Assembly: GCF_030013595.1 (NCBI RefSeq)
Contig: NZ_CP122768.1
Source: Escherichia coli
GTDB lineage: Bacteria > Pseudomonadota > Gammaproteobacteria > Enterobacterales > Enterobacteriaceae
Length of the DNA stretch: 64,000 bases
Strand: one strand, 5' to 3'
Position 1 is the first letter of the stretch. Each line of letters opens with the position of its first letter. The notes under the pieces were generated by a model that worked only from the letters and a program-made list of their open reading frames with translations, did no database searches and was not told where the DNA came from. Made by a program: the position numbers and the translations under genes. This document shows, piece by piece, positions 2,673 through 21,268 of the stretch.

Positions 2673-3132
2673 TCAACGTAAGGCGTTCCTCGATATGCTG
2701 GCGTGGTCAGAGGGAACTGATAACGGACGGCAGAAAACCAGAAATCATGGTTATGACGTCATTGTAGGCGGAGAGCTATTCACTGATTACTCCGATCATC
2801 CTTGCAAACTTGTCACGCTAAACCCCAAACTCAAATCAACAGCAGCCGGACGTTACCAGCTTCTTTCCCGTTGGTGGGATGCCTATCGTAAGCAGCTTGG
2901 CTTGAAAGATTTCTCTCCGAAAAGCCAGGACGCAGTTGCACTGCAGCAGATTAAAGAGCGTGGCGCTTTACCTATGATTGATCGCGGTGATATCCGTCAG
3001 GCAATCGACCGTTGCAGCAATATCTGGGCTTCACTGCCGGGCGCTGGTTATGGTCAGTTCGAGCATAAGGCTGACAGCCTGATTGCAAAATTCAAAGAAG
3101 CAGGCGGAGCGGTCAGAGAGATTGAGGTATGA
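2656..3132 (+). CDS. R: Endolysin R (lambda-type lytic transglycosylase)
   Basis: 158 aa; [24 protein letters not shown]... recalled from lambda R; overlaps S stop. Confidence 0.9.
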
Positions 3133-3596
3133 GCAGAGTAACCGCGATTATCTCCGCTCTGGTTATTTGCATCATCGTCTGCCTGTCATGGGCTGTTAAT
3201 CATTACCGTGATAACGCCATCGCCTACAAAGAACAGCGAGATAAAAAAGTCAGTGAGCTGAAGCAGGCGACCGCCACCATTACTGACATGCAGCAGCGCC
3301 AGCGTTCTGCTGATGCGCTCGATGCTAAATACACGAAGGAGTTAGCTGATGCGAAAGCTGAAAATGATGCTCTTCGGCGCAAGCTTGATAATGGTGGTCG
3401 GGTGTTCGTCAAAGGAAAATGCCCTGTGCCATCCTCAGCCGAAACCTCCGGCGCCTCCGGCATGGGCAATGATGCCACCGTCGAACTCTCTCCAGTTGCT
3501 GGACGAAACGTTCTCGGTGTCCGGGACGGAATTATCCGCGACCAAACAGCACTGAGAACGCTTCAGGAATACATCAGGACGCAATGCCTTCGATGA
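3129..3596 (+). CDS. Rz: Spanin inner-membrane subunit Rz
   Basis: 155 aa; N-terminal TM segment and coiled coil; N-terminal half recalled as lambda Rz, C-terminal half divergent. Confidence 0.85.
3349..3555 (+). CDS. Rz1: Spanin outer-membrane lipoprotein Rz1, embedded in Rz in the +1 frame
   Basis: Embedded ORF with lipoprotein signal (LIMVVGC lipobox) and proline-rich region; true start may be an internal Met. Confidence 0.7.
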
Positions 3597-15942: not shown

Positions 15943-17325
15943 ATGGCTAGTTGGCAACAAGGAATCAACTCAGGCGGCTTTCTTGCTGGTATCGGTGGGC
16001 AAAACTCAAATGCGCCAAAGGCAAGTGATGTAAGTGAGGCGTTGGCCTATATTCGCCAGAACAACGAAATGGAGCGCTCAGGTCGCAATAACATCGGCCT
16101 TCAGGCGTTGCAGGGGCTTGGTAGTGTCGCTCAAACATATCAAGCCGCAAAGCAACAGGAATTCCAAAAAGAATATGCGGCAGCCATCCAGTCAGGTGAT
16201 CGGCAGCAGGTGCGAGATCTGATGACCAAATATCCTGGTCAATTAGAGAAGATTCAGTCTGGTATGAAGTGGGCAGACGAAGACCAGCGCAATTCTATCG
16301 GCACCTTAGCGGCTGGCGCACGCCTTGCGTCATCGTCTCCAGAAGCAATGCAATCATGGCTGCAAAACAACGCCAAGGAACTGGCGCGCGTCGGTGTTGA
16401 CCCTAACAGCGTTGCTCAGATGTATCAGCAAAACCCTTCAGGATTTGGTGAGTTTGTTGATCACCTTGGAATGGCTGCTCTTGGTCCGATTGATTACTTC
16501 AATGTTCAGGACAAGATGGCTGGTCGTGAAATTGACCGAGGCAAACTGGCAGAGACAATCCGCAGCAATCAGGCTGGCGAGGCGCTAACAGCACGAGGCC
16601 AGAACATCACGATGCGCGGTCAGGACTTATCTGCTTCTACTGCGCGACGAGGTCAGGATTTGGCAATGCAGCGAGCGTCAACAAGACGAATCGCTGGGAA
16701 TGATGAGCGTACAGTTCAGTTATCAGATGGCAGAACTGTAACGGTAGGCGGGAAGCTTCACGGCGCTGGGGCTAATGCGTTCTACGAAGGCATCGACAAC
16801 GAGGGGAATATGGTTCGCGTCCCTGCTGGCTCTATTGCCGCTCCGGCTACATCGGCAGCAAGCGCGCAGAATTACGCAATGAAGAAAGATCTTGATGCAA
16901 TTTCTGGTGCATCAATTGACGATCTTGGCTTCATGACTGGCATTACAGGCTCTTCAGGTTCTCCTGCTCTTGGTGCAGATATTCGTAGCCGTGCATCTGG
17001 TGGTGATCAGAGGAAACTATACAACGCTGCACAGCGAATCCAAGGAAAGATGCAGAATCAGGGCATTGCAGCAGCCAGAGACATGGGGGCATCCGGTATC
17101 AACACCGTTGCAGAAGCAAAGATGTATTTTCAAGGTATGCCACAGGTTGATTTCTCAAGCCCTGAAGCACTGCAACAATCAATGCGCGACATTCAGCAAT
17201 ATACCGACAATTACAACCAGCAATATAACGTTAATGTTGGTAAATCTCAGCGGCAGCAATCTCAACCTGCACAGGTATCACAGCCAGCAGCCAGCAGTAA
17301 CTTTTCTTCACTATGGGGTGATTAA
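15943..17325 (+). CDS. Ejection protein, P22 gp20-like
   Basis: 460 aa; position and composition as P22 gene 20. Confidence 0.7.
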
Positions 17326-19430
17326 TGGCTAAAGCATGGAAAGATGTTATCGCTTCTCCACAGTATCAGGCGTTAGCACCAGAACAAAAAGCGCAGGCTC
17401 AGGAGCAATACTTCAATGAAGTCGTGGCCCCGCAAGCCGGAGAAAGTGTAGAGCAGGCTAAGCAGGCTTTTTATGCTGCCTATCCACTACCATCAACGAA
17501 TGAAATAGACCGATACCAATCAGCAACTCAAAATATTCAACATACATCATCTGATAATTCTCTTGCGTCAGGGTATGCAAAGTTAGCTACTCAGCAAAGA
17601 GAGGGGCTTGAGCGTTCAGCAGAACAGGGAGCCAGTCTTGGGGCTGCGATGCGCGATGCTATAACAGGCGAAAGCCGAATGACTCCAGAGATGGAGAGAC
17701 TGCAAAATGTCGACCTTGCCCCAGAGTTAACCTCACTCAGCATGGATGCTCTAAAAGCTCGATGGTCTCAACTTTTCGGCTCTGACGCATCTCAGGAAAA
17801 GATTCTTCAGAGCATGGGAGCGAAATTAAGGCAGGATGAGAAGGGGAACACTATCGTTTCCCTGCCATCCGGTGATTATGCTCTGAACAAGCCGGGTTTA
17901 TCGCCGCAAGACGTGGCATCGTTTCTGGCTAATGCGCTGGCGTTTACACCAGCGGGCAGGGCTGGAACGGTGCTTGGTGCCATAGGAAAATCAGCAGCTA
18001 CAGATTTAGCACTACAGGGAGCCACCAGCCTTGCTGGTGGAGAAGATATTGATCCGTTACAAACGGTAATTTCTGCTGGCATTGGTGGTATTGGTAAGGG
18101 GCTGGAAAATACAGCGAGTGCGGTTTCGAGGGCTGTTCGTGGTGATATGTCGCCTGAAGCAAAGGCTGCTGTCGACTTTGCATCGGAAAGAAATCTGCCG
18201 TTAATGACCAGTGACATGCTGAAAGATAAAACCTTTATGCAGAGTCAGGCTCAGACATTAGGCGAAAGAGTTCCTTTTTTTGGAACCGGTAAGAATCGGC
18301 TGAATCAACAACAAGCACGAGAAAATTTAGTCAGAACATTTAGCGATGGTCTGGGTGGTATTTCTGATAAACAGCTTTATGAATCTGCGACTAAAGGGCA
18401 ACAAAAATTCATTGAGGCAGCAGGAAAGCGATATAACCGCATAATTGACGCTATGGGGGATACCCCTGTCGATCTCTCAAACACGGTAAAAGCTATCGAC
18501 AATCAGATTGCCGTGTTAAGCCGCCCGGGCAAATCTCAGGATAGAGCCGCGGTAAAAGTCTTGCAGCAATTTAAAGACGATATCACCAGCGGGCCAAATG
18601 ACCTGCGTCTGGCGAGGGAAAACAGAACCGATCTTCGAAAGCGATTTATGGCGTCATCTGACACTGTTGATAAAGATACGCTCCAGAAAGCCAGCGATAT
18701 TATCTACAAGGCATATACGGCGGATATGAAAAAAGCCGTAGCCAAAAATCTTGGAGCAGACGAAGCCATTAATATGGCAAGGGTTGATCGCTCATGGTCT
18801 AAATTCAATGACATGATGGGAAGAACGCGCGTTCAAAAGGCAATAGCCAGCGGCAAGGCCACGCCTGAGGATGTAACAAAACTCGTTTTTAGCCAAAGCC
18901 CATCAGAACGTTCTCAGCTTTACAGGCTTCTGGATGACAATGGTAGGCAAAACGCACGAGCAGCCATAGTTCAGAATGCTGTAGATAAGGCGACTGATCC
19001 GTCTGGAAATATCAGTGTTGAGAAGTTTATTAATGCGTTACACCGGAACAGGAAGCAATCAGCAACTTTCTTTAAAGGCGTACATGGAAAGGAACTGGAC
19101 GGCGTTATTAAATACCTCAACGATACAAGACACGCGGCAAAAGCGAACGTTCAAAACTTAAATGGTCAGCAGCTTTATGGATTGTTAGTTGGTGGTGGCA
19201 TCATAAACGCAGCAGTATTAGCGGGGATGCTAAAAACGGCTGCGTTTGTTGTTCCTGCTGCTGGTGCCGTAGGCGGAGCAGCGAAGGCATACGAAAGCCC
19301 TGTTATACGAAATGCCTTGTTACGTCTGGCAAATACGCCAAAAGGTAGCACAGCATATGACAGAGCGATCAGTACGGTCACACAATCGCTCACCAGAGTC
19401 GCACAGGCATCACAAAAAGAAGCTCAATAA
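17325..19430 (+). CDS. Ejection protein, P22 gp16-like (longer than I recall for P22)
   Basis: 701 aa; last gene of the rightward virion operon. Confidence 0.7.
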   Translation: MAKAWKDVIASPQYQALAPEQKAQAQEQYFNEVVAPQAGESVEQAKQAFYAAYPLPSTNEIDRYQSATQNIQHTSSDNSLASGYAKLATQQREGLERSAEQGASLGAAMRDAITGESRMTPEMERLQNVDLAPELTSLSMDALKARWSQLFGSDASQEKILQSMGAKLRQDEKGNTIVSLPSGDYALNKPGLSPQDVASFLANALAFTPAGRAGTVLGAIGKSAATDLALQGATSLAGGEDIDPLQTVISAGIGGIGKGLENTASAVSRAVRGDMSPEAKAAVDFASERNLPLMTSDMLKDKTFMQSQAQTLGERVPFFGTGKNRLNQQQARENLVRTFSDGLGGISDKQLYESATKGQQKFIEAAGKRYNRIIDAMGDTPVDLSNTVKAIDNQIAVLSRPGKSQDRAAVKVLQQFKDDITSGPNDLRLARENRTDLRKRFMASSDTVDKDTLQKASDIIYKAYTADMKKAVAKNLGADEAINMARVDRSWSKFNDMMGRTRVQKAIASGKATPEDVTKLVFSQSPSERSQLYRLLDDNGRQNARAAIVQNAVDKATDPSGNISVEKFINALHRNRKQSATFFKGVHGKELDGVIKYLNDTRHAAKANVQNLNGQQLYGLLVGGGIINAAVLAGMLKTAAFVVPAAGAVGGAAKAYESPVIRNALLRLANTPKGSTAYDRAISTVTQSLTRVAQASQKEAQ

Positions 19431-19448: not shown

Positions 19449-19637
19449 TTATTTCCTTAGCACATGAAACAATGTTTGCTTTAATTCCACCCATACAATT
19501 ATGACCACTATAGACAGACAAAAGAAACTGAATGCATTGGCATCACGATCGAAACCTTCTCCGGCACTAAATCCGTAAAAGGTCATAAAAAATATAAAAA
19601 TTGCGCACTTTGCAACGTTTACAAATTTTTTCTTCAC
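19449..19637 (-). CDS. Hypothetical small membrane protein (moron, antisense to late operon)
   Basis: 62 aa, two predicted hydrophobic helices, low GC; lies where P22 carries sieA. Confidence 0.4.
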   Translation of the reverse strand: MKKKFVNVAKCAIFIFFMTFYGFSAGEGFDRDANAFSFFCLSIVVIIVWVELKQTLFHVLRK

Positions 19638-20011
19638 ACCAACCTCCTTAGTTTTGCTCAGGATACCAGATGATACTTTATTGGTGGAGTGGTGTGTGAA
19701 AACGTGTCAACGACAAACCATCCACAACTTGGACGAATGATTTAGCAAAAAGTGCTATTTTTGGTGTTTAGTGTCATAGAAAAGTGAATAGCTCACTTTT
19801 CAACATTGCATGAAACTTGCAGGAAATGTGACATTACCTTATAGGTAATTTCGGCGAAAATGCAGTAAATGTGAAACGTAATGGTTTAAACATGTCGCTA
19901 AAGTGGTTGTAAGTTAGCCTCCGAAGGATTGCTGATAGCTTTGTTATAGTATTAAATGACATTTGACATAGTTGGATACTTAGCTGTGGCTATCAAGATG
20001 GAGGTGTGTTC

Positions 20012-20455
20012 ATGCTTACTTGTTTTGATGTCGCCGACTACTTCCTGTCGCGGTGTGACGAGGATAGCGGTGACACAATCTCTAATTTAAAATTACAAAA
20101 GCTTGTTTACTATGCTCAGGGGTTTTCATTGGCGTTGCTTGGTGAGCCTCTTTTTCAGAATAAGATGGAAGCTTGGATGCATGGCCCTGTTGTCCCTGAG
20201 CTTTATCGCCGTTATAAACAATATGGTAATGGAGCTATCCCTTCTCCAGAGTCTTTTGATGCTGAAAAATTCAGCGAAGAACAGTTAGAGCTATTAGAAG
20301 AAGTCTGGGATGTTTTTGGGCAATTTTCTGCCTGGAAACTGAGGAACATGACACACGAAGAGTCACCATGGAGATCAAACTATATTGAGGGTGTTGGTGG
20401 TTCTGAAATTAGCTCTAAGGAGATGGCAGAGTACTTTGCAACTCGGATTAACTAA
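20012..20455 (+). CDS. DUF4065 / Panacea-domain protein (putative antitoxin, PanA/SocA-like)
   Basis: Motif LKLQKLVYYAQGFSLALLGEPLF...EAWMHGPVVPELYRRYKQYG typical of DUF4065 phage-associated proteins; GGAGG 7 nt upstream of ATG 20012 (the ORF track uses GTG 20006). Confidence 0.65.
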   Translation: MLTCFDVADYFLSRCDEDSGDTISNLKLQKLVYYAQGFSLALLGEPLFQNKMEAWMHGPVVPELYRRYKQYGNGAIPSPESFDAEKFSEEQLELLEEVWDVFGQFSAWKLRNMTHEESPWRSNYIEGVGGSEISSKEMAEYFATRIN

Positions 20456-20459
20456 CGAG

Positions 20460-20879
20460 ATGGCAAGAAAATCTAAAAGGATTATCCCCCCTGCTGAATC
20501 TACAGGTAAGTTAAAGTTAGGGCCGCAGTCAGGGGGGAATTCAGATCAAAAGAAACCGAAATTTTCATTCTGTTACATCCAAAGCTCTCACTGCATAACG
20601 AAATGCCAAAAAGATGAGAAAGCTGGCTTAGCTGATAAATTATACAGATTAAGTCAACTAACATGGGCAGAGATTAAGCAGCAAGGTAGGCATAAGCTTG
20701 GATTTGAGAAGATTGCAAGGGGTGCAATTAAAGCTGGTATCCCCGGTCATATAACGGAAGACGTAGATCATTTCTTGGCTTTTAGATTTGATGATTTGAA
20801 AGCCATGGTTGGTTATCGTCTTGGATCGACATTTTTTGTTATATGGCTTGATAGAGAGTTCAACCTATACAAGCACTAA
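20460..20879 (+). CDS. Uncharacterised partner protein of the Panacea-like gene (candidate toxin/effector)
   Basis: ATG 4 nt after upstream stop; 139 aa, basic N-terminus, Cys cluster (CYIQSSHCITKC), C-terminal GYRLGSTFFVIWLDREFNLYKH weakly like RelE/ParE-type toxin C-termini; followed by strong terminator. Confidence 0.5.
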   Translation: MARKSKRIIPPAESTGKLKLGPQSGGNSDQKKPKFSFCYIQSSHCITKCQKDEKAGLADKLYRLSQLTWAEIKQQGRHKLGFEKIARGAIKAGIPGHITEDVDHFLAFRFDDLKAMVGYRLGSTFFVIWLDREFNLYKH

Positions 20880-20908
20880 TAAAACCCACCGTCAGGTGGG
20901 TTTTTTTG
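20879..20908. terminator. Strong, probably bidirectional intrinsic terminator
   Basis: Hairpin acccacc-gtca-ggtgggt flanked by an A-run upstream and a T-run downstream; sits between convergent genes. Confidence 0.8.
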
Positions 20909-20923
20909 TTGGAGATAAAATGG

Positions 20924-21127
20924 TTAACCAAATCGATCCTTAAAGCGTCTATCGCTGTTGCGTCTCTCCATTTTACTGTTGCAGTACGGACAAAGATGCT
21001 GTTTCTTTCCATCGATAGTCCATGTGAAGTACTTTTTCTTAAATCCAGCACCACAGATATCGCAACTTCTTGGTTTAAACATACTGGCTATGAAGATAAG
21101 AACAACAAATCCTATGATCCATTCCAT
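20924..21127 (-). CDS. Hypothetical small membrane-anchored zinc-ribbon protein
   Basis: 67 aa; N-terminal hydrophobic helix then CDICG...CPYC (CxxC...CxxC); low GC. Confidence 0.45.
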   Translation of the reverse strand: MEWIIGFVVLIFIASMFKPRSCDICGAGFKKKYFTWTIDGKKQHLCPYCNSKMERRNSDRRFKDRFG

Positions 21128-21268
21128 ATCATGTACCTGTTTTAACTTTATTTTTTGATTTTTAGGGATTAATCAGAAACTTTATCTTGCGATTAAGCAA
21201 AGCTACTAGCTAACAAAAGAGTGCGTATACAATCAATCGTTTCACATCAACCTCAACAAGGAGAAATC

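What the first reader, a model, noticed from the sequence alone, without database searches (positions are those of the whole stretch)
20924..21127. Membrane-anchored zinc-ribbon mini-protein
The 67-aa ORF combines an N-terminal transmembrane helix with a CxxC...CxxC zinc ribbon (CDICG...CPYC) and a basic C-terminus. It is on the opposite strand to the late operon and shares the bidirectional terminator with the Panacea-like operon. Small membrane zinc-ribbon proteins in prophage accessory loci are plausible exclusion or sensor factors but are essentially uncharacterised.
Basis: inference. Interest (0 to 1): 0.45.

Follow-up and report, generated by a model that had tools for sequence, protein, structure and literature searches.

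The report
Membrane-anchored zinc-finger mini-protein, prophage cargo
A real, conserved but unnamed 67-residue inner-membrane protein with a small cytoplasmic zinc finger sits in the accessory region of an E. coli P22-like prophage; in many other phages it follows the secondary-immunity repressor gene, so it is a candidate phage-exclusion gene, but its function is untested.

Summary
The ORF at 20924-21127 (-) exists as described: a hydrophobic N-terminal helix, four invariant Cys (CDIC...CPYC) and a basic tail. It is a genuine gene. Homologues (60-97% identity) occur across Enterobacterales under purifying selection, and 23 of 24 species-representative copies are intact. At least 129 more distant clusters share the same module, a TM helix followed by CxxC-x20-CxxC. 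No Pfam, NCBIfam, PHROG, PADLOC, PDB or literature match names it. RefSeq leaves it unannotated in 29 of the 31 complete E. coli genomes that carry it.

The AlphaFold model looks more like a treble clef than a classic zinc ribbon. Fusions to secreted N-terminal domains indicate that the finger is cytoplasmic.

In at least 7 other phage or prophage lineages the gene lies 0-60 bp downstream of the Mnt-like or CI-like repressor that faces an antirepressor. On small plasmids it follows an RHH-ParE pair. In some genera it is a solitary chromosomal gene.

In this window it is a ~350-bp insertion absent from phage Emek. It carries a ~50-nt remnant of an mnt-like 3' end and has no convincing promoter of its own.

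Best guess (about 35%): a lysogen-expressed exclusion factor acting at the inner face of the membrane. Nothing here tests the function.

The parts
20924..21127 (-). Coding sequence of the 67-aa membrane-anchored zinc-finger protein (stop codon 20924-20926)
   Evidence: ORF list. Homologues at 60-97% identity. Non-synonymous divergence is 0.12-0.25 while synonymous sites are saturated. 23 of 24 species-representative copies are intact.
21077..21124 (-). Codons for residues 2-17: N-terminal transmembrane helix (signal anchor, N-out/C-in inferred)
   Evidence: Hydrophobicity 2.3-2.5. AlphaFold helix 2-16. K-P-R follows the helix. In longer relatives a signal peptide plus periplasmic-type domains (SH3_3, Sel1) precede this helix.
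20981..21064 (-). Codons for residues 22-49: C4 zinc-binding core, CxxC-x20-CxxC
   Evidence: Four invariant Cys. The 20-residue spacer is fixed in 122 of 129 family representatives. Model: knuckle, beta-hairpin 34-38/41-45, second CxxC at the helix N-terminus.
20927..20989 (-). Codons for residues 47-67: basic C-terminal helix with conserved [KR][KR]xS and terminal RFG
   Evidence: AlphaFold helix 47-66. S58 is invariant. F62, F66 and G67 are invariant in the enterobacterial subfamily.
21136..21139 (-). Weak Shine-Dalgarno-like CAGG, 8 nt before the ATG
   Evidence: Sequence. Homologues carry stronger GGAG or AGGAG motifs at the same distance.
21140..21188 (-). Remnant homologous to the 3' end (including the stop codon) of an mnt-like repressor gene
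   Evidence: Local alignment to the end of the Mnt-like gene of L013 scores 22, against 9.5 +/- 1.4 for 500 shuffles, none of which reached it.
20908..21257 (.). About 350-bp insertion (the gene plus its upstream DNA), lying between the terminator and the orf61 ribosome-binding site and absent from phage Emek
   Evidence: Three-way alignment of window, Emek and E. coli EC28. Emek annotation.
20881..20904 (.). G+C-rich hairpin shared with the convergent Panacea pair; likely transcript end for both strands
   Evidence: Terminator scan, + strand. Folds at -18.2 kcal/mol (+) and -15.4 kcal/mol (-), z = -4.3 and -2.7.
22058..22086 (-). Candidate Pmnt promoter (TTGATA-17-TATCCT); possible source of read-through transcription into the gene
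   Evidence: Promoter scan. No - strand terminator is predicted between 22029 and 20925. Read-through itself is inferred, not shown.

Best explanation
The gene encodes a single-pass inner-membrane protein with almost nothing exposed outside the cell. Its 50-residue, strongly basic C4 zinc finger is held at the cytoplasmic face of the membrane.

It is mobile cargo (a 'moron') that temperate phages and small plasmids place at the end of constitutively expressed, self-repressed operons. These are the Mnt-type or CI-type repressor operons of an antirepressor module, and RHH-ParE operons. The carrier cell would therefore make it all the time.

The most likely role is protection of the carrier against incoming foreign DNA (superinfection exclusion). 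The finger would bind either the entering DNA or the cytoplasmic side of the entry machinery at the inner membrane.

Shown: the gene is real, its architecture, its likely topology, its mobility and its recurrent placement. Inferred: that it is expressed in lysogens, that it excludes phages, and what it binds.

In this window the copy has been cut away from its original mnt gene. It would depend on read-through from the resident mnt-orf105 transcript or on an unrecognised promoter.
For: Same-strand placement 0-60 bp after the repressor that faces an antirepressor:
- Edno5
- KP12
- L010, L011, L012 (CI/S24 type) and L013
- Citrobacter L023/L024

Other context evidence:
- The window copy lies in the gene 16 to gene 9 accessory region of a P22-like prophage, where P22 carries mnt-orf59a-sieA.
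- A mnt 3' remnant lies upstream of the window copy.
- There is a presence/absence polymorphism against Emek.
- The gene follows RHH-ParE on 5-9 kb plasmids and in Pantoea.
- Distant members occur next to an integrase and VWA/PP2C genes.
- One distant member is fused to a HIRAN domain, known from established work to bind DNA 3' ends, directly after a phage tape-measure gene. Another lies near a separate HIRAN gene.

Protein evidence:
- Net charge of the cytoplasmic part is about +9.
- Topology is supported by relatives with a signal peptide and SH3_3 or Sel1 domains N-terminal to the helix.
Against: No experiment or expression data exist. There is no PADLOC hit.

In Morganella, Proteus and Photorhabdus the gene is a solitary chromosomal gene between housekeeping genes and is syntenic within each genus. 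That pattern fits a cellular function better than a phage-specific one.

The tiny external segment cannot contact periplasmic phage parts.

On the plasmids a terminator-like hairpin separates ParE from the gene. In this window no promoter is predicted and the SD is weak.

Placement at operon ends is typical of any cargo gene, not only of exclusion genes.
Confidence: 0.35

Rival explanations
1. It is a general cellular adaptor. The membrane-tethered finger binds a conserved cytoplasmic host component (ribosome or RNA, a protease or chaperone, or acidic lipid) and alters host physiology. Phages and plasmids merely borrowed it.
For: - Solitary, genus-syntenic chromosomal copies lie between housekeeping genes.
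- A wide family of at least 129 clusters carries varied periplasmic N-terminal domains, as if the TM-finger were an output module.
- Weak but repeated similarity to the N-terminal zinc ribbon of the ribosome-binding archaeal MBF1 (E 4e-5 to 5e-3 in 5 of 6 members, far below the model cut-off).
Against: The enterobacterial subfamily is strongly associated with mobile elements. The aMBF1 similarity covers only a generic CxxC...CxxC stretch. No partner gene is conserved.
Confidence: 0.25
2. In this particular prophage the gene is a silent or nearly silent passenger. It was copied from an mnt-gene operon by illegitimate recombination and lost its promoter.
For: - Only a ~50-nt remnant of mnt remains upstream.
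- No sigma-70 match upstream.
- The SD is weak compared with homologues.
- PGAP does not call the gene in 29 of 31 E. coli genomes.
Against: The ORF is intact and at least 99% identical in all 31 E. coli carriers, including prophages with a different left flank. No - strand terminator separates it from Pmnt. However, such near-identity says little about selection.
Confidence: 0.2
3. It is a small membrane-active toxin or addiction/lysis-timing factor, kept in check by the adjacent RHH protein or by low expression.
For: - The layout (short hydrophobic helix plus basic tail) resembles small membrane toxins.
- It is recurrently adjacent to RHH genes and toxin-antitoxin pairs: ParE, YafO and Panacea.
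Against: The RHH partners are bona fide Mnt-type repressors facing arc/ant, or complete ParDE-type pairs, so no antitoxin is left over. Solitary chromosomal copies have no partner. A folded, invariant C4 finger is unusual for pore-forming mini-toxins.
Confidence: 0.1
4. It is a regulatory component of the Mnt/Arc/Ant immunity switch, for example by sequestering the antirepressor at the membrane.
For: Co-location with the module in at least 8 lineages.
Against: The accompanying antirepressors and repressors belong to different families: P22_AR_N, Bro-N/ORF6N, KilA/Rha; Mnt-like or CI/S24. Many copies lack the module altogether. A specific partner is therefore unlikely.
Confidence: 0.07

Closest known systems
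P22 SieA (superinfection exclusion protein A) and the mnt-orf59a-sieA arrangement
   Same: Both are inner-membrane proteins encoded in the gene 16 to gene 9 accessory region of P22-like phages. Both lie on the strand opposite the virion genes and downstream of mnt (for P22; here). In other phages this gene directly follows mnt.
   Different: No sequence similarity: tblastn of this protein against 50,697 phage records found no P22-group hit. By the paper's description SieA is a much larger multi-pass protein with no zinc site. Exclusion by this protein is untested.
Small prophage or phage inner-membrane exclusion proteins such as HK97 gp15 and T4 Imm (from established literature, not tested here)
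   Same: Very small, membrane-anchored cargo genes inserted among tail genes, thought to act at DNA entry across the inner membrane.
   Different: Those proteins have no metal-binding cytoplasmic domain. No homology was detected with any PHROG of known function.
Lambda cI-rexA-rexB logic (exclusion genes co-transcribed with a prophage repressor; established knowledge)
   Same: The gene sits at the 3' end of a repressor operon that is active in the lysogen.
   Different: Here the repressor is the secondary-immunity (Mnt-type) repressor. The product is a single 67-aa protein. The window copy is no longer attached to the repressor gene.
Generic C4 treble-clef or zinc-ribbon fingers (ClpX zinc-binding domain, aMBF1 N-terminal ribbon, Pfam Zn_ribbon_8, DZR_2, zf_Tbcl_Rhp7)
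   Same: Two CxxC pairs, a beta-hairpin, and the second pair at a helix N-terminus. Weak profile hits.
   Different: All hits are below the curated cut-offs. Structure searches found nothing better than E = 0.5 (PDB) or 0.018 (viral). None of those domains is directly preceded by a membrane helix.

Membership tests
Classic zinc ribbon (e.g. Pfam Zn_ribbon_8 PF09723, DZR_2 PF18912) | Profile score above the curated gathering threshold | tested here: not met
   Best hits are 16.8 bits against a cut-off of 34.4, and 15.4 against 27. Homologues score similarly.
Classic zinc ribbon | Two zinc knuckles, each contributed by a beta-hairpin | tested here: not met
   The AlphaFold model (pLDDT 83.9) has one hairpin, and the second CxxC starts a long helix, which is treble-clef-like. 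This is a model only.
C4 zinc-binding finger (general) | Four conserved Cys in CxxC...CxxC with fixed spacing | tested here: met
   Invariant. The spacer is 20 residues in 122 of 129 representatives. Metal binding itself is not testable here.
P22 SieA family | Sequence homology to SieA types A-C, including the FxRYPxEAxxFNK motif | tested here: not met
   The motif is absent from the 67-aa sequence (motif taken). No P22-group hit in tblastn.
P22 SieA family | Blocks DNA injection by P22-like phages | not testable with these tools
   Needs plating and potassium-release or DNA-entry assays.
Phage 'moron' (accessory cargo gene) | Present or absent between otherwise collinear related phage genomes | tested here: met
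   A ~350-bp insertion relative to Emek, present in E. coli prophages with different left flanks.
Phage 'moron' | Own promoter and terminator | tested here: inconclusive
   The hairpin at 20881-20904 can serve as the terminator. No sigma-70-like promoter was found in the 141 nt upstream.
Known anti-phage defence systems (PADLOC-DB 2.0) | Match to any defence protein model | tested here: not met
   No hit at E <= 0.1.
Archaeal MBF1 (TIGR00270) | Full-length match including the HTH domain, score >= 110 bits | tested here: not met
   Only model positions 1-37 match, at 17-24 bits.
Type II toxin-antitoxin third component / small membrane toxin | Obligate pairing with a cognate antitoxin gene | tested here: not met
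   Solitary copies occur in Morganella, Proteus and Photorhabdus. Partners vary elsewhere.

The most novel reading that the evidence does not exclude
This is the founding member of an undescribed family of membrane-tethered zinc-finger proteins that temperate phages co-transcribe with their secondary-immunity repressor. The finger would intercept incoming DNA, or the cytoplasmic end of the injection conduit, at the inner membrane. That would be a one-gene exclusion mechanism with a DNA- or protein-binding finger as its active part. The HIRAN-fused relatives would point to recognition of DNA ends.
Probability: 0.25. Interest if true: 0.65.

Novelty: new variant of a known kind. Interest (0 to 1): 0.42.

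Why it matters
If the protein excludes phages, it would add a very small, easily tested, non-homologous type to the short list of inner-membrane exclusion proteins. It would also show that the Mnt/Arc/Ant module is a recurrent landing site for such genes in both short-tailed and contractile-tailed phages.

Independently of function, this is a conserved small-protein family that no curated database names and that RefSeq misses in 29 of 31 E. coli carriers. It is therefore invisible to most comparative and defence-island surveys.

Tried and rejected
- Pfam, NCBIfam, PHROGs and PADLOC scans of the protein, close homologues and distant members gave only sub-threshold generic zinc-finger hits.
- Foldseek searches of the model against PDB and viral structures found nothing significant. 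The afdb50 library was unavailable.
- A profile search of PDB sequences returned only spurious C2H2 'CDVCGKxF' matches.
- The multi-stretch hits in the 1.84-billion-protein search are eukaryotic C2H2 arrays and were discarded.
- Literature searches by topic and by accession found nothing on this protein.
- A broad alignment was too divergent for the genome scan. The close alignment was used instead.
- A promoter search upstream of this copy and of 13 homologues found no shared sigma-70 motif.
- Rfam found no RNA family overlapping the ORF.
- 'Chance ORF' was rejected because of conservation and purifying selection. My Nei-Gojobori counts gave pS above 1 in some pairs, so only the qualitative result (synonymous sites saturated, non-synonymous sites low) is used.
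- A functional link to the divergent orf61 was rejected, because orf61 occurs without this gene in Emek and others.

Full report
**1. Observation**

The window is an E. coli P22-like (Lederbergvirus-type) prophage. The region is 100% identical to strains rl0044 and W4.

Gene order around the finding:
- ejection-protein genes, 15943-19430 (+)
- a SocA/Panacea-domain gene, 20006-20455 (+), Pfam E = 1.9e-24, and its 139-aa partner, 20460-20879 (+)
- a hairpin terminator, 20881-20904
- the finding, 20924-21127 (-)
- orf61, 21269-21454 (+)
- a 105-aa secreted-type ORF, 21464-21781 (-)
- mnt-like gene, 21778-22029 (-)
- arc, 22107-22280 (+)
- ant, 22347-23276 (+)
- tailspike, 23377-25272 (+)

The 67-aa ORF has exactly the reported sequence. 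Residues 3-17 are strongly hydrophobic. The remaining 50 residues hold 14 K/R against 5 D/E. The CxxC...CxxC pattern occurs in only 3 of 775 open frames in the window.

**2. It is a real gene**

- A search of 5.8 billion proteins found 18 clusters at 65-97% identity, all of about 67-72 aa.
- tblastn found the gene in Klebsiella phages KP12, klb_E and KpnBHU6, and in Edwardsiella phage Edno5.
- It is also on Klebsiella, Escherichia marmotae and Pantoea plasmids.
- A scan of one genome per species found 24 loci in 15 genera of Enterobacterales. Of these, 23 have an intact ORF and one has an internal stop.
- Between the window copy and 12 homologues, non-synonymous divergence is 0.12-0.25 while synonymous sites are saturated. 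This shows purifying selection on this reading frame.
- Most homologues have GGAG-type ribosome-binding sites at the right distance. The window copy has only CAGG.

**3. Architecture and wider family**

AlphaFold with 18 sequences gave a mean pLDDT of 83.9. The model has these elements:
- helix 2-16
- a knuckle at C22/C25
- a beta-hairpin, 34-38 and 41-45
- C46/C49 at the N-terminus of helix 47-66

This is treble-clef-like rather than a two-hairpin ribbon. The near-threshold zf_Tbcl_Rhp7 hit of one homologue agrees with that reading.

A profile search of 1.84 billion representative proteins gave 349 hits at E <= 1e-3. Of the top 150, 129 have a single CxxC-x20-CxxC motif with a hydrophobic helix directly upstream. 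Forty of those have the helix at the N-terminus, as here, and 89 have N-terminal extensions. The repeated-hit proteins are eukaryotic C2H2 arrays and are spurious.

Some extended members carry a signal peptide plus SH3_3 or Sel1 domains before the helix. This places the N-terminus outside the cell and the finger in the cytoplasm. The K-P-R that follows the helix fits this topology, and so does the established expectation that a Cys4 zinc site belongs in the reducing cytoplasm rather than the periplasm.

Invariant across the wide family are the four Cys, P47 and S58. W36 and N50 are nearly invariant.

**4. Nothing known matches**

- Pfam and NCBIfam hits are all below the curated cut-offs.
- PHROG hits have no assigned function.
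- PADLOC gave no hit.
- Fold and sequence searches of solved and viral structures gave nothing significant.
- Literature searches found nothing.
- Source names are 'hypothetical protein' or generic COG labels.
- In 31 of 5,426 complete E. coli genomes the ORF is present at >= 99% identity, but it is annotated in only 2 of them.

**5. Genomic context, the main new evidence**

(a) Downstream of the secondary-immunity repressor. In these loci the gene starts 0-60 bp after an Mnt-like ribbon-helix-helix repressor gene on the same strand, and that repressor faces arc plus an antirepressor:
- Edno5
- KP12
- L010, L011 and L013
- Citrobacter L023/L024

In L012 a CI/S24-type repressor takes the place of Mnt. 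The antirepressors belong to several families. Most of these hosts are contractile-tailed prophages, in which the module is embedded among tail and baseplate genes.

(b) In the immunity region but not adjacent. In Yersinia L007/L008 the gene is in the same module but separated from the repressor by a YafO-type pair.

(c) After a toxin-antitoxin pair. On 5-9 kb ColE1-type Klebsiella plasmids and in Pantoea it follows an RHH-ParE pair. A terminator-like hairpin lies between ParE and the gene.

(d) Solitary chromosomal copies. In Morganella, Proteus and Photorhabdus it sits alone between housekeeping genes, in the same place within each genus.

(e) Distant members. One lies next to an integrase and VWA/PP2C genes. 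One is fused to a HIRAN domain immediately after a phage tape-measure gene. One lies near a separate HIRAN gene.

**6. The window copy**

Compared with phage Emek, which has the same Panacea pair, terminator and orf61, the window carries an extra ~350 bp (about 20908-21257). This insertion holds the gene and its upstream DNA. E. coli EC28 has the same insertion next to a different left-hand gene.

Nucleotides 21140-21188 (-) align with the last ~50 nt of the Mnt-like gene of L013, stop codon included. The alignment scores 22, against 9.5 +/- 1.4 in shuffles, and 0 of 500 shuffles reached it. The cassette therefore appears to derive from an mnt-gene operon and to have lost the repressor gene and its promoter.

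No sigma-70 match lies upstream. A candidate Pmnt promoter at 22086-22058 could feed the gene, because no - strand terminator is predicted before 20925. That transcript would run through orf105 and antisense to orf61. This is inference only.

The hairpin at 20881-20904 folds on both strands, but a good T-run follows it only on the + strand.

**7. Interpretation**

P22 carries its exclusion gene sieA downstream of mnt in the same region. Lambda carries rexAB behind cI (established knowledge). By analogy, a small membrane protein repeatedly attached to the lysogen-expressed repressor operon is most simply explained as an exclusion or defence cargo gene.

Only about two residues are external, so the active part must be the basic cytoplasmic finger at the membrane. 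It could bind entering DNA or the inner face of the entry machinery. The HIRAN associations point weakly toward DNA ends.

Against this reading:
- the stable chromosomal copies in several genera
- the wide family with sensor-like periplasmic domains
- the absence of any functional data

I put exclusion at about 0.35, a host-directed adaptor role at 0.25, silence of this particular copy at 0.2 (not exclusive of the others), a toxin-like role at 0.1, and a role in the immunity switch at 0.07.

**8. Verdict**

The finding is a genuine, unnamed small-protein family with a suggestive, reproducible genomic association. Its mechanism is unknown. The interest is moderate, because the hypothesis is cheap to test.

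Noticed in passing
window 20006-20879 (+): A SocA/Panacea-domain protein (149 aa, Pfam E = 1.9e-24) is followed by a 139-aa partner (phrog_8366). The partner has a weak PADLOC NsnC hit (E = 9e-6). This is probably a toxin-antitoxin or defence pair. The same pair is present in phages Emek and phiv205-1.
   Followed up: partly
window 21464-21781 (-): A 105-aa ORF with a signal-peptide-like N-terminus overlaps the stop of the mnt-like gene (ATGA). It takes the position directly after mnt that the zinc-finger gene holds in other phages. It matches phrog_19844, of unknown function.
   Followed up: no
window 22280-22346 (-): A weak match to sar antisense RNA (Rfam RF00262, 29.3 bits against a gathering score of 43) lies between arc and ant. 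This fits a P22-type immI region.
   Followed up: no
window 19449-19637 (-): A 62-aa hydrophobic ORF (phrog_21338, E = 5e-45) lies just after the ejection-protein genes. It is another small membrane cargo gene in the same accessory region.
   Followed up: no
L004 (E. coli rl0044) 3031-3419; 31 E. coli genomes: RefSeq leaves the ORF unannotated in 29 of the 31 complete E. coli genomes that carry it. The homologues on Klebsiella and E. marmotae plasmids and in Edno5 are annotated.
   Followed up: yes
L049 4001-4750; L050 2788-3045 and 3592-4059: A distant family member is fused to a HIRAN domain right after a siphovirus tape-measure gene. Another member lies about 550 bp from a separate HIRAN gene.
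   Followed up: partly
L016 2688-2724; L021 634-670: On small Klebsiella plasmids a GC-rich hairpin with a T-run (GAAGCCCGCTATGCGGGCTTTTT) lies between ParE and the zinc-finger gene. Expression there may depend on terminator read-through.
   Followed up: no
L042 5001-5201 (Buttiauxella gaviniae): This is the only one of 24 species-representative copies with an in-frame stop (at the conserved Y33 position), so it is a likely pseudogene.
   Followed up: no
window about 59361 (+) and about 1404 (+): These are the only two other CxxC...CxxC frames in the window. The one near 59361 ([23 protein letters not shown], in a 336-aa frame) looks like the AccD zinc ribbon, recalled from memory. If so, the right end of the window would be host chromosome.
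   Followed up: no
L015 188-394 and L037 5001-5192: In two unrelated loci the gene lies next to an Hcp (type VI secretion) gene. In L015 it is also near a SymE-type toxin and a Tlde1-domain gene.
   Followed up: no
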